From the NCBI GenBank assembly GCA_964016885.1, contig OZ024740.1:220038001-220102000 (forward strand): a DNA stretch of 64,000 bases, in the 5' to 3' direction. Position 1 is the first letter of the stretch, and every line of letters begins with the position of its first letter. Positions 26,817 to 32,000 of the stretch are shown piece after piece. This DNA comes from Eledone cirrhosa (taxonomy: Eukaryota). The notes under the pieces were generated by a model. That model was not told where the DNA came from. It searched no databases and saw only the letters and a list, made by a program, of their open reading frames with translations. Made by a program: the position numbers and the translations under genes.

Positions 26817-27120
26817 CTATATATCTATATATATATATATATATATATATATATATATATATATATATACATATATATACATATATATACATATACATAT
26901 ATACATATATATACATATATATACATATACATATATATACATATATATACATATACATATATACATATATATACATATATATATATATACATATATATAC
27001 ATATATATACATATATATATATATACATATATATACATATATATATATATACATATATATACATATATATATATATACATATATATACATATATATATAT
27101 ACATATATATACATATACAT
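26817..27120. repeat. (TA)n/(TATACA)n microsatellite
   Basis: Read directly from the sequence. Confidence 0.98.
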
Positions 27121-28745
27121 ATCATCATCATCATCATCATCACCGTTTTACGTCCGTTCTTCCACGCTAGCATGGGTTAGACGGGTTGTCCTGTTGTGGG
27201 CAGTGTCTGGTCGGCTGACCATGCCTTGCTCATACAGGAACTGATCTGGCTTGATTTCTACAGCTGGATGCCCTTCCTAACACCAACCTCATTTACAGTG
27301 AGTGCTGGGTGCTTTTTCATGGCGCCTACACGTCCACTTTACAGTGAGTGCTGGGTGCTTTTTTGCCGTGGCACCTCCACGACCACCTTGCGGTGGGGGG
27401 GGGGGGGGCATATTGTTTATATGCTTCAGCATGTACCCATGGGAGGTCGGGTACCCTGTATTACTGCGTGACGCCAGAAGTCACGGTCGTGTGTCATTGA
27501 CTTTGAGAGGTGTAGTTGGGTAAGGTCGGCTTTTATCACCTCATCCCAAGTCATCTTGGGTCTCCCCACTCCGCGGTTTCCATCAACTTCTAGTGCTCTG
27601 CACCTTTTTATGCAGCTGTCATCCTTCATACGCATCACATGTCCATACCAGCGTAACCGCCTCTCCTGCACGCAGCATTTGATTCCTCTTATGCTCAGTC
27701 TCTCTCTCAATTCATTTATGCTTTGTCGTTCACGTATATTACTGTTACACATCCATCGGAGCATGCAGGCTTCGTTTCTCTCTAATCTACGTAAGTCTTC
27801 CACCTTCAGCGCCCAGGTCTCACTACCATGCAACATCGCTGTTCGGATACACGCATCATACAGTCTGCCTTTCATTCTGAGGGAGAAGCCTTTTGCAGCT
27901 AGCAGTGGTAGTAGTTCCCTAAACTTCTTCCATCCCGTTCTTACCCTAGTTATTGTACTTTCTGAGCACCCACCTCCGTTGCTAATTCGGTCACCTAGGT
28001 AGCAGAAGCTGTCTACTGTTTCTACAGGGCCCTCCCAGAGATTGGTGGTACTTGTTTCCTGTGGCTGTTTGCTTGCTGTTTCAGCACAGCTGCTGCATGT
28101 GAATCCTACATTCTTAATTAAGCTTCCTGAGATCCCGCTACATCTCTTGTGTACCCATTGTTTGCATTTGGGGCAAAGAATGGAGTTCCTACCTACACCT
28201 TTCCTACATACTGAGCAAGGCCATTTCCCTGAGGGGATCTGGGTTCTGTTTTCTCGTCTACTTATAAGGACCTTAGTCTTTGTCATGTTGACTTTGAGGC
28301 CCTTTCTCTCTAGTCCCTGCTTCCAGGTTTGGAATTTATTCTCTAGTTCTACCATAGATTCAGCTATGAGTGCGAGGTCATCAGCATACAGGAGTTCCCA
28401 TGGGCATCCGGTCTTAAACTCCTCCGTTATTGCCTGCAGGACTATGATGAACAGGAGAGGGCTAAGAACAGAGCCCTGGTGGACCCCAACCTGTACGCTA
28501 AATTCCTCGCTATACTCATTGCCAATCCTAACTTTGCTGACTGCTCCCCTATACATGGCTTGTACAGCTTTCACAAGCCATTCATCTACTCCTAGTTTTC
28601 TAAGAGCCCACCAGATTACTGCACGTGGAACTCTGTCAAAGGCTTTCTCAAGGTCGACAAATGCCAAGTAGAGTGGCTTACTTTTAGCTAGGTACTTTTC
28701 CTGTAATTGCCTCACAAGGAAGAGCGCATCAGTGGTGCCTTTCCC
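27121..28745 (-). mobile_element. Young 5'-truncated RTE-clade LINE; ORF2 fragment 27426-28745 (RT with PHD-like finger)
   Basis: Open frame GKGTTDALF...[11 protein letters not shown]...[13 protein letters not shown]...LLYADD...FCYLG...RLRWYGHV...GRPKMTW; 3' UTR with G-tract and (GAT)n tail. Confidence 0.96.
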
Positions 28746-29010
28746 TATATATATATACATATATATATATATATATATACATATATATATATATACATAT
28801 ATACATATATATATATATATATATATACATATATATATATATATATATATACATATATATATATATATACATATATATATATATACATATATACATATAT
28901 ATATATATATACATATATACATATATACATATATATACATATATATATATATATACATATATATATATATACATATATATATATATACATATATATATAT
29001 ATACATATAT
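28746..29010. repeat. (TA)n/(TATACA)n microsatellite
   Basis: Read directly from the sequence. Confidence 0.98.
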
Positions 29011-29558
29011 ATCATCATCATCATCATCGTTTAACGTCCATATTCCACGCTTGCATGGGTCTGGACGGGAGTTTTCCCACTTGAAGCAAGAGTGGTTGTC
29101 TTGCTCGCATAGGACTGCCTGGCGGGTTTTCTACAGCTGGATGCCCTTCCTAACACCAACCACATTTACAGTGTGGGGCTGGGAGGTTTTTACCGTGTTA
29201 CCTACACGACCACATTACAGCGTGGACTGTGTGTTTTTTTTGTCGTGACACCTACACGACCTCATTTGTTTCGGGTTGGATGTTGTGACACCAACATAAC
29301 TTTACATTGAAAGGGATGGTGTGGATGGGGTGTGGGTAGTGTGACGGGGGTGTATTTTGTTAGAGGTGCCTACTGACTGTAGTAGGTTTCACTTTGTTCT
29401 TAGGTAAGGCGGGTCTTCTCTATTACTGAGTACCGCCAAAGGTCTCGGTCCAGTGACATTGTCTTGGAGAGGTGTAAGTGTGTGAGGTCGGAATTTATCA
29501 AGTCGTCCCAGGTTTTTCTGGGTCTGCCTACTCCGTGGCTACCGTCTGTTTTTACTAT
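29011..29558 (-). mobile_element. Short 5'-truncated RTE LINE (same subfamily as 15487-17336)
   Basis: [48 protein letters not shown] and a 3' UTR matching the 16-kb copy. Confidence 0.93.
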
Positions 29559-30351
29559 ATATATATACATATATATATATATACATATATATATATATGT
29601 ATATATATATATATACATATATATATATACATATATATATATACGTATATATACATATATATATATATATATATACGTATATATACATATATATATATGT
29701 ATATATATATATATGTATATATACATATATATATACATATATATATATACATATATATATATGTATATATATGTATATATATATATATATATATGTATAT
29801 ATACATATATATATATACATATATATCTATGTATATATACATATATATATATGTATATATACATATATATATATACATATATATCTATGTATATATACAT
29901 ATATATATATACATATATATCTATGTATATATACATATATATATATACATATATATGTATATATATGTATATATATATGTATATATACATATATACATAT
30001 ATATACATATATATACATATATATATATGTATATATACATATATATATATACATATATATGTATATATATGTATATATATATGTATATATACATATATAC
30101 ATATATATACATATATATACATATATATATATGTATATATACATATATATATATACATTTATATGTATATATACATATATATACATACATTTATATGTAT
30201 ACATATATATATATGTATATATACATATATATATATACATTTATATGTATATATATGTATATATATATACATATATATGTATATATATATACATATATAT
30301 ATACATATATATACATATACATATATATACATATACATATATATATATATA
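29559..30351. repeat. Long compound TA/TACA/TATG microsatellite
   Basis: Read directly from the sequence; about 0.8 kb. Confidence 0.98.
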
Positions 30352-30470
30352 CATCATCATCATCATCATCATCATCAACGTTTAACGTCCGTGTTCCACG
30401 CTTGCATGGGTTTGGACGGGGGTAGTCCCACTTGAGGCAGGAGTGATTGTCTTGCTCGCATAGGACTGTC
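30352..30470 (-). mobile_element. RTE LINE extreme 3' tail
   Basis: (CAT)n-CAACGTTTAACGTCCGTGTTCCACGCTTGCATGGG...TAGGACTGTC matches 15487-15595; followed by (TA)n. Confidence 0.9.
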
Positions 30471-32000
30471 TATATATATATATATATACATATACATATA
30501 CATATATATATATACATATATATACATATACATATATATATATATATAATATATATATAATATATATATAATATATATATATATTATATATATAATATAC
30601 ACACACACATACACATATACTAAAGATAGGTCACAATTGTGATCCATCTGGAGGTATGGTCAATATTGGGCATCAGAACCTTAGACAGTACTTTTGTTTT
30701 GGGTATGAACATAAATAAATATAAGAAAAATTGAGCACTATTTTCTTTTTCCTTTTTCATATCTACGGATATTGCTACATATACATTATATATGTACATG
30801 TGTATGTGTTTTTTTAATAGTAATCATGATTGCTATTATGCAATCAATTCTAAATAGTAATTCAGGTTATTATACTACAGTTGAGATGAAATATTATAAG
30901 GAGCAATAACGAGAAGTTATTATCTTTTCATTGTTTACACATTAACTGTCAAAGAGTGAGATGTTATAGTTAGTGTTTACACTTAAGAACAACCTACATC
31001 AAATATGAAAAATTAATATAACAAACAAATATTTACCAAATTAAAAATACTAGTTAAATTATATTAGTAGTAACAAGTAGTACACATAACTTCAGCTTTA
31101 AAAAAAGAAGACAGTAGGAGAAAAAACAATAACAAAATTTATGCTGTTACCTGTTTTACTTAATCAGCTGATACGCAAGTAAAATGAATGCAAAGGTGGA
31201 AATTATTAAATGTGTTGTTGTTTTTTTTCTCTTGTTTCGTTTTTTTTTTTCTATTCGTAATGCCAGTAAAACCCTAAATCCACAGCTGTTTTTATATTCA
31301 GTATCACAGGCTGACCAAGTGATGAGAAAAAAATATATTTACAACTTTCTTTCTGATTGCTACTAAGCAATACAGCAGCTACTTATAATATAATGTATAG
31401 TATTAAGCAAGACCTTCCTAGAAGCATAACTTTGGGCACACCCAGTGTTTTTATCAATAGTATTTATACACTTCTAACATATGTAACAAGGTACAAAGAA
31501 TATAATACATACATACTGGGTGGCTAACAACACACTGACGAGCAGTTAGTTGGCATTGCTTCCATCTCAACTAAAGAAATGAAAAACTATATTGCCAGGC
31601 TTATATGTAAAGGTGATTGTGTGTGGAGTTACATGCTGTTATACTAGAGTGTTACAGTAATTTATATTTTATGTGTGAATACAAATAAGCAAGGGAAGTT
31701 TTGTTGGTTTATTTGTTTGTTTGTTTATTTATTGCTTTTGTTTGTTTGTTTGTTTTTTGTTTTTTTTAGTTAACTAAATTAAAAGGTAACTTAGATTAAA
31801 TATTTGACCTCTAACACATGCTTCTATGACATTTCTAACTGACATACAAAAGAAAAGAAATATTTTCTAAGAAAATGTGTTATATTTATAATGTGGGTTA
31901 CAATATAAAATCCATATGAACTGAATTATCATTGTCATGGTCTGTTTTTCCATCATGGTATGGTACTTGAAAGCAATTAAGGTAACCAATCCTGACTTAC

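What the first reader, a model, noticed from the sequence alone, without database searches (positions are those of the whole stretch)
26817..30600. Train of three same-orientation RTE LINEs embedded in one expanding TA microsatellite
Seen: (TA)n - RTE(27121-28745) - (TA)n - RTE(29011-29558) - (TA)n - RTE(30352-30470) - (TA)n. All are minus-strand and come from two subfamilies. The fourth young copy (15487-17336) and SINE-A copies at 37298 and 62093 also abut (TA)n. Each (GAT)n tail runs straight into ATATG/ATAT repeats, and 5' junctions show microhomology to the tract (ATGTAT at 17331-17336, ATA near 29556). The first two tracts are strand-biased, with G only on the element's sense strand. Known: microsatellite targeting is described for Dong/R4, some Tx1 and some R1 families; RTE is generally regarded as not sequence-specific. 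Inference: a TA-targeting RTE/SINE system in which tail slippage or target duplication also lengthens the microsatellite and creates new targets. This could contribute to the abundant TA repeats seen here.
Basis: partly seen in the sequence, partly recalled or inferred. Interest (0 to 1): 0.72.

Follow-up and report, generated by a model that had tools for sequence, protein, structure and literature searches.

The report
LINE pile-up in a TA repeat
Three truncated copies of a very abundant jumping gene sit in one TA repeat, as thousands of its copies sit beside TA runs across this genome, likely because it prefers short ATAT-type sites, which are commonest inside such repeats; their shared direction is likely chance.

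Summary
The train is real: three independently truncated RTE-like LINE copies (two subfamilies) between four TA-type tracts. The TA link holds genome-wide. (AT)4 directly follows the tail in 3,398 of 11,145 subfamily-A and 5,165 of 13,222 subfamily-B copies, against 1.7% of positions.

The preference looks like a short motif, AT^RT, not the microsatellite. Long pure tracts are under-used ((AT)10 given (AT)4: 29% and 28% vs 45% background), and about half of AT^RT sites already lie in TA tracts. Co-orientation is not general (8 same, 13 opposite among TA-joined tailed pairs). The G-strand bias is not general either (15 vs 13).

Insertions add little target sequence (mostly 0-8 bp duplications). 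Only 39 of 803 sampled TA tracts touch a copy, so the family does not explain the TA abundance. One residue remains: tracts are longer on the 5' side (84 vs 47; absent in a SINE-only set).

The scan already reported this preference and a similar pile-up elsewhere in this genome (e1-10311960, e1-8840335, e1-8819405).

The parts
26813..27120 (.). TA tract 1, (TA)n with TACA interruptions; holds an 85-nt internal repeat at 26-nt period
27121..28745 (-). 5'-truncated RTE-like LINE, subfamily A, with (GAT)7 tail at 27121-27141; up to 99.7% identical to other copies
27426..28745 (-). Open reading frame fragment: RT (PF00078) plus PHD finger (PF00628), 439 aa
28746..29010 (.). TA tract 2, TACA-interrupted; its last 37 nt match the first 37 nt of tract 3
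29011..29555 (-). 5'-truncated RTE-like LINE, subfamily B, with (GAT)6 tail; the most diverged of the three (best match elsewhere 95.1%)
29556..30351 (.). TA tract 3 (796 bp), mixed TACA/TATG; holds a 133-nt internal repeat at 104-nt spacing
30352..30470 (-). 3' stub of subfamily B with (GAT)8 tail (best match elsewhere 98.9%)
30471..30599 (.). TA tract 4, followed by a short CA run
15487..17336 (-). Fourth copy, subfamily B, with a 112-bp 3'-UTR unit repeated 4.1 times; TA-type runs on both sides; 6-nt 5' microhomology
37298..37730 (+). SINE-A copy whose head abuts (AT)26 at 37246-37297
61790..62093 (-). 5'-truncated SINE-A copy; (TA)5 at head side only
36401..36749 (+). SINE-A copy with no TA tract at either end (counter-example)

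Best explanation
The train is three separate insertions of an abundant, recently active RTE-like LINE into one pre-existing TA-type tract, which likely drew them because the element's nicking and priming step prefers short alternating AT^RT sites and such a tract holds hundreds of them. Shown: independent 5' truncations, a tract of the same type on both sides of most long-flanked copies, genome-wide enrichment of ATAT and (AT)4 at junctions, and random orientation in clusters. Inferred: the APE domain nicks after AT in 5'-AT^RT-3', and the freed ...AT-3' end pairs with the AU of the (GAU)n RNA tail to start reverse transcription. 5' joining then uses 0-6 nt of microhomology and leaves a 0-8 bp duplication, a small deletion or a short templated filler. 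TA is self-complementary, so both orientations are used. The tracts likely reached hundreds of bp mainly by ordinary slippage and internal duplication, not through the insertions.
For: Genome-wide, A tails (n = 11,145): ATAT 5,460, (AT)4 3,398, (AT)10 998. B tails (n = 13,222): (AT)4 5,165 and (AT)10 1,460. Background from 79 blind 10-kb stretches: 3.3%, 1.7% and 0.79%. (AT)10 given (AT)4 is 29% (A) and 28% (B) vs 45% (95% interval 41-49), or vs 40% (37-44) if the tail supplies the last AT. In the blind sample, 36% and 39% of 28 copies have a tract of 20 bp or more on the tail and head side, vs 49% and 48% of AT^RT sites. The primer end is AT in 119 of 153 sites. In 23 non-tract sites with a duplication of 4 nt or more, the next bases are A/G (94%) then T (65%). 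Comparison with empty paralogues gives 0-7 bp duplications, fillers up to about 10 nt and small deletions. Orientation in TA-joined pairs outside the window: 8 same, 7 tail-tail, 6 head-head among pairs with both tails; 14, 7 and 16 among all 37. The tracts hold 85- and 133-nt internal repeats. 39 of 803 tracts touch a copy. Full-length A copies carry one 1,040-aa APE-RT-PHD ORF.
Against: Tracts are longer on the 5' side than on the tail side (84 vs 47, Wilcoxon p = 0.004; 50 bp or more on one side only: 24 vs 6). A symmetric short-motif model does not predict this, though it is absent in the 49 SINE-only sites (20 vs 17, p = 0.57). (AT)4 given ATAT is 62% vs 53% background, so the preferred site is somewhat longer than 4 nt. 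In copy-centred loci at the start of C1, filled tracts are longer than empty ones (median 98 vs 63 bp), but long tracts are hit more often, which confounds this. A 37-nt match flanks the 29011 copy (shuffle p = 0.005, one of three junctions tested). The final AT before the tail cannot always be assigned to the target. Several unrelated repeats are even more TA-bound, so a host-side cause may contribute. No biochemistry was done.
Confidence: 0.68

Rival explanations
1. Insertion-driven tract growth: each insertion would lengthen the TA tract, mainly at the 5' junction (template jumps, long duplications or destabilised slippage afterwards), creating more targets in a positive feedback loop.
For: 5'-side excess (84 vs 47; 73 vs 50). 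One SINE has a 5-nt duplication plus a 10-nt filler copied from the flank (L186). A 37-nt match flanks copy 29011. Filled tracts are longer at the start of C1. Precedent in a DNA transposon: MuTAnT filled sites average 15 TA units per flank vs 9 in empty sites (PMC4486113, passages).
Against: In the blind sample filled and empty tract lengths do not differ (median 78 vs 83 bp, n = 16). Resolved events add about 15 nt at most. There is no asymmetry in the SINE-only set. 95% of TA-tract bases touch no copy. A bias toward nicking near one edge of a tract gives the same asymmetry.
Confidence: 0.14
2. Host-side hotspot: TA tracts would be open, nick-prone or selectively neutral DNA that collects many kinds of element, with little contribution from this endonuclease's own specificity.
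For: Unrelated repeats are TA-flanked at one end in 12 of 14, 14 of 16, 7 of 9 and 5 of 8 copies, vs 10% background. (TA)n is a known preferred target of Naiad and Neptune Penelope-like elements (PMC8557442, passages).
Against: An abundant 197-bp SINE-like repeat is not enriched (10 of 78). The AT^RT motif is also seen at non-tract sites. Long pure tracts, the ones expected to be most fragile (recalled, not tested here), are under-used.
Confidence: 0.12
3. True (TA)n-specific lineage: the APE, or the PHD finger inserted in the RT region, would recognise an extended TA array, as Waldo, Mino and Kibi do for their repeats.
For: 17- to 22-fold enrichment of (AT)4. 20 of 30 A and 17 of 30 B loci at the start of C1 have a TA tract at the tail. 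32% of SINE-A heads follow (TA)4 (5,436 of 16,981).
Against: Most copies lack (AT)4. 7 of 31 blind-sample copies have no TA run of 12 bp on either side. Occupancy does not exceed what AT^RT predicts. None of 31 APE-RT-PHD relatives with a visible 3' end is followed by (TA)4 at the tail (short collapsed contigs, weak evidence).
Confidence: 0.05
4. Assembly artefact: the array would be a mis-join of separate loci across TA tracts.
For: Not tested directly: no reads were laid across the tracts.
Against: Each tract has its own ordered interruption pattern. Neighbouring tracts share a type across the elements. Dozens of other TA-joined pairs exist, and the outer flanks have no near-identical second copy in the fetched sample.
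Confidence: 0.01

Closest known systems
RTE-clade LINEs and SINEs with the 'Tn-TA' insertion signature (Bov-B, plant RTE/Au SINE, Sauria SINE; PMC6007223: abstract, Discussion and part 2 of Results read; PMC13295347: abstract and Results read)
   Same: Single APE+RT ORF, short tandem-repeat tail, T/A dinucleotide at the cut, and tail-to-target pairing proposed to help choose the site. PMC6007223 proposes that RTE integration can match a genome's microsatellite environment.
   Different: Here the site is an alternating AT^RT/ATAT motif. Duplications are mostly 0-6 bp, against 7-15 bp quoted for RTE. The upstream T-run is weak (10 of 47 vs 9.7% background). The ORF carries a PHD finger, and the 3' UTR is about 285-380 nt.
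SR3 and other RTE elements with a loose AT-rich preference (PMC1291365, passages read)
   Same: No tight specificity but a preference for AT-rich sites.
   Different: SR3 has 10-12 bp duplications, and no microsatellite pile-ups are reported in the passages seen.
Microsatellite-specific non-LTR families: Waldo (ACAY), Mino (AC), Kibi (TC), Togen (TG), Dong (PMC3812793 and PMC4640811, passages; Dong's TAA target is recalled and also stated in earlier scan notes)
   Same: Insertion into simple repeats, with the repeat on both sides of a copy.
   Different: Those families are described as sequence-specific and belong to R1, Tx1 or RLE clades. Here most copies lack a long tract, and occupancy is explained by a short motif.
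(TA)n-seeking elements of other classes: Naiad/Neptune Penelope-like elements (PMC8557442, passages) and MuTAnT (PMC4486113, passages)
   Same: Same target repeat, and duplications are hidden by the tract.
   Different: Different enzymes (GIY-YIG, Mutator transposase). MuTAnT is far stricter: only 14 of 218 copies lie outside perfect (TA)n.
RTE-born microsatellites in Lepidoptera (PMC2887409, abstract read)
   Same: RTE tail repeats associate with simple repeats.
   Different: There the repeat is the element's own tail. Here the TA is target DNA, present at truncated 5' ends too.

Membership tests
RTE clade | Single long ORF with APE endonuclease and RT | tested here: met
   1,040-aa ORF in L142, L148, L154, L156; Exo_endo_phos plus RVT_1 plus PHD
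RTE clade | 3' end of short tandem trimer to pentamer repeats | tested here: met
   (GAT)n tails; relatives end in GAT, TTG, AGT, AGTG and other units
RTE clade | Unusually short 3' UTR (as stated in PMC1291365) | tested here: not met
   About 285 nt in A and 380 nt in B, though most relatives have 20-100 nt. The element is therefore called RTE-like here.
RTE clade | RT phylogeny groups with RTE-1 and Bov-B | not tested
   The 120 listed homologues carry no clade names and the PDB hits hold no RTE protein, so no named reference was at hand. The RTE label rests on architecture and recall.
RTE clade | No separate ORF1 | not tested
   The 5' regions were viewed but not scanned for an ORF1
Tn-TA signature group | T/A dinucleotide at the cut site | tested here: met
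   Primer end AT in 119 of 153 sites; next base A/G then T. The last AT is partly ambiguous with the tail.
Tn-TA signature group | T-run about 10 nt upstream of the duplication | tested here: inconclusive
   10 of 47 non-tract sites vs 9.7% background, p = 0.013; duplication calls of 3 nt are unreliable
Tn-TA signature group | Duplications of 7-15 bp | tested here: not met
   44 of 47 non-tract sites have 0-6 bp
Microsatellite-specific non-LTR elements (Dong, Waldo, Kibi) | Nearly all copies lie in the target repeat | tested here: not met
   30% (A) and 39% (B) follow (AT)4; 15 of 59 tailed 3' ends in the blind sample abut a tract
Microsatellite-specific non-LTR elements (Dong, Waldo, Kibi) | Preference for the repeat beyond a short motif | tested here: not met
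   (AT)10 given (AT)4 is below background; AT^RT predicts the occupancy
Dong/R4 | Restriction-like endonuclease | tested here: not met
   Pfam shows an N-terminal APE-type domain
Microsatellite-specific non-LTR elements (Dong, Waldo, Kibi) | Endonuclease cuts the repeat specifically in vitro | not testable with these tools
   Needs a bench assay

The most novel reading that the evidence does not exclude
An APE-RT-PHD LINE lineage prefers alternating TA and lengthens the tract on the 5' side at or after each insertion (templated fillers, long duplications). Tracts and retroelements would then amplify each other into trains, a feedback loop not described for RTE-like elements in the papers searched.
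Probability: 0.15. Interest if true: 0.6.

Novelty: new variant of a known kind. Interest (0 to 1): 0.3.

Why it matters
It shows how an APE-type LINE usually called non-specific can look microsatellite-targeted: a short ATAT preference meets a genome in which 5% of bases are TA tracts. It also supplies the control (motif-matched background) needed before such claims are made. A young family with intact ORFs, an ATAT bias and very short duplications is a usable natural example for studying how RTE-like endonucleases and tail pairing choose sites. If the 5'-side excess proves to be insertion-made, it would be a mechanism linking retrotransposition to dinucleotide repeat growth.

Tried and rejected
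A DNA-mode genome search found nothing because common words are skipped; exact patterns were used instead.

Orientation bias driven by tract strand was rejected. A first pairing run mis-flagged tails because alignments ran into TA and gave 4 same of 18; it was superseded. The near-uniform strand of matches at C1 7.2-9.6 Mb first suggested a regional bias. Four loci fetched at 7.2-9.0 Mb are an 18-bp satellite, as earlier notes say, so it was set aside.

The TA as part of the element's own tail was rejected: TA occurs at many different 5' truncation points and the tail side is not the longer side.

Empty-paralogue comparison resolved only about ten short-site events and no long tract; most other rows were self-hits or minisatellites. 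Laying reads on the 201-bp 3' end confirmed the family in three reduced-representation runs of other samples but showed nothing about flanks. The runs that hold the unique flank are one sample, possibly the assembly's own. No reads were laid across the tracts, so mis-assembly is untested.

PDB and Atlas searches gave only generic APE-RT matches.

Rows dropped before counts: 3 of 62 3' ends without a tail; 24 of 164 copies with unresolved, inverted, edge or other-subfamily 5' ends; 13 more by eye; 36 of 85 SINE heads without a usable 3' end. Pattern counts miss tails over 10 units (1 of 30 loci in each subfamily).

Paper searches listed no report of RTE pile-ups in TA microsatellites or of TA targeting by cephalopod RTEs. 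Three cephalopod- or SINE-related papers were checked by passages and say nothing on it (PMC9115989, PMC13282606, PMC5786205). Repbase entries, subscription journals and supplements were not seen and may describe it.
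Full report
Observation. The window lies on contig C1 of a 3.0-Gb eukaryotic assembly. It is likely an octopod; this rests on recall of the repeat types and on earlier scan notes and was not tested. Four TA-type tracts (26813-27120, 28746-29010, 29556-30351, 30471-30599) alternate with three minus-strand, 5'-truncated LINE copies ending in (GAT)n. 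The first is subfamily A, with an open RT+PHD frame. The other two are subfamily B, 76% identical to A. Their best matches elsewhere are 99.7%, 95.1% and 98.9%, and each is cut at its own point, so they are three insertions, not a tandem duplication. Three SINE-A copies in the window have no TA tract.

The element. Among 40 extended loci, four A copies carry the same intact 1,040-aa ORF with APE, RT and a PHD finger. Exact 3'-end patterns give 11,145 A and 13,222 B copies, and the SINE-A head gives 16,981. The APE-RT-PHD layout is a widespread lineage: 425 proteins at E <= 1e-50 among 7,993 scored, the best at 55% identity. Relatives share the 3' motif and end in GAT, TTG, TG, AGT and other tails; none of 31 with a visible 3' end is followed by (TA)4 (weak, collapsed contigs). 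Clade placement by tree was not done, so I call it RTE-like.

TA association. Background comes from 79 blind 10-kb stretches, in which 5.2% of bases are in (TA)4 or longer. ATAT precedes 3.3% of positions, (AT)4 1.7% and (AT)10 0.79%. At A tails the figures are 49%, 30% and 9.0%; at B tails 39% and 11% for (AT)4 and (AT)10. 32% of SINE-A heads follow (TA)4 within 2 nt. The TA is target DNA: it also sits at varied 5' truncation points (both sides 20 bp or more in 60 of 140 resolved copies), and the interruption class matches across the element in 24 of 37 cases vs 10.0 expected.

Short motif, not microsatellite. Given (AT)4, the run reaches (AT)10 in 29% (A) and 28% (B) of copies but at 45% (41-49) of background sites, or 40% (37-44) if the tail supplies the last AT. 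In the blind sample, 15 of 59 tailed ends of all ages abut a tract, against 5.6% of all positions but 20% of ApT positions. For 28 young copies with both ends resolved, 36% and 39% have a tract of 20 bp or more on the tail and head side, against 49% and 48% of AT^RT sites. Non-tract insertions show the same motif: AT at the primer end in 32 of 47, then A/G and T. The Tn-TA upstream T-run is only weakly present (10 of 47 vs 9.7%, p = 0.013). Loci at the start of C1 are more TA-bound (20 of 30 and 17 of 30) than the blind sample, so region matters. Other repeats are more TA-bound still (12 of 14, 14 of 16, 7 of 9 ends), while a 197-bp SINE-like repeat is at background (10 of 78 vs 10%).

Orientation and strand bias. 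Among 188 tailed copies, TA-joined neighbours outside the window are 14 same-direction, 7 tail-to-tail and 16 head-to-head; with tails on both members, 8, 7 and 6. The head-to-head class may include 5' inversions, and the sample is mostly copy-centred. Other three-copy co-oriented trains occur near C1:2.07 Mb and 4.04 Mb. The C/G side of tract interruptions is unrelated to element direction (15 vs 13 on the tail side; 15 vs 24 on the head side).

Does insertion lengthen the tract? Duplications are 0-6 bp in 44 of 47 non-tract sites. About ten events resolved against empty paralogues show 0-7 bp duplications, small deletions and one 10-nt filler copied from the flank. The window's tracts contain 85- and 133-nt internal repeats, as slippage would leave. 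Only 39 of 803 TA-type tracts (4.5% of their bases) touch a copy, and filled and empty tracts do not differ in the blind sample (78 vs 83 bp, n = 16). Against this: the head side is longer than the tail side in 84 vs 47 of 153 sites (p = 0.004), though not in 49 SINE-only sites (20 vs 17). A 37-nt match flanks copy 29011 (p = 0.005 by shuffling, one of three junctions), and filled tracts are longer at the start of C1 (98 vs 63 bp, confounded). Tail slippage is not supported; some 5'-side gain remains open.

Mechanism (inferred). The APE domain nicks at 5'-AT^RT-3'. The ...AT-3' end pairs with the (GAU)n tail and primes reverse transcription. The truncated 5' end joins with little microhomology. 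A long TA tract offers hundreds of such sites on both strands and keeps them after each insertion, so it is hit repeatedly in either direction.

Known context. PMC6007223 (abstract, Discussion, part of Results) and PMC13295347 (abstract, Results) describe a T/A cut-site signature and tail-dependent site choice in RTE elements. PMC1291365 (passages) describes a loose AT-rich preference. PMC3812793 and PMC4640811 (passages) list microsatellite-specific families in R1, Tx1 and RLE clades, none RTE in the passages seen. PMC8557442 and PMC4486113 (passages) give (TA)n-seeking elements of other classes. Seven searches found no description of this case; Repbase and supplements were not seen. Earlier scan notes on this genome report the same TA preference and a five-copy pile-up; they are unreviewed and are not counted as support.

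Verdict. The feature is real. It is a by-product of a loose TA-motif preference in a TA-rich genome, a new variant of a known kind. Interest 0.3.

Noticed in passing
window 17460-17576 and 17595-18040: Two other repeats sit between TA runs: one starts with a 43-bp perfect hairpin (17457-17499). Their ends abut TA tracts in 12 of 14 and 14 of 16 blind-sample copies, a stricter TA link than the LINEs show.
   Followed up: partly
window 18719-19792 (+): A 357-aa RT frame of an unrelated LINE (PF00078).
   Followed up: no
window 58318-60846 (-): An 842-aa open frame rich in Ser/Lys/Glu, probably a large host exon; the train may lie in or near this gene.
   Followed up: no
window 15588-16042; 37468-37625: Tandem amplification of 3'-UTR units inside copies: 112 bp x 4.1 in the B copy, 50 bp x 3.2 in SINE-A.
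   Followed up: no
L049, L042, L061, L168: A third LINE subfamily shares its last ~43 nt with SINE-A and is its likely partner; the SINE's middle part matches the 3' UTR of subfamily A.
   Followed up: partly
L266-L269 (C1 7.2-9.0 Mb): An 18-bp satellite with SINE/LINE insertions; pattern matches in this region lie almost all on one strand. Already reported by the scan.
   Followed up: partly
L186, L219, L189, L254: SINE-A 5' junctions with short fillers copied from the flank or from the SINE's own head, suggesting template jumps at 5' joining.
   Followed up: partly
L122, L139, L112 (C1 ~0.90, 3.48, 0.14 Mb): Tail-to-tail pairs separated by 0-2 nt: a new copy inserted at the GATAT end of an older copy's tail.
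   Followed up: no
L142, L148, L157: The 5' UTR of full-length A copies contains tandemly repeated blocks of variable number.
   Followed up: no
window 5710-6475: A 197-bp unit repeated 3.9 times, a tandem array of an abundant SINE-like repeat.
   Followed up: no
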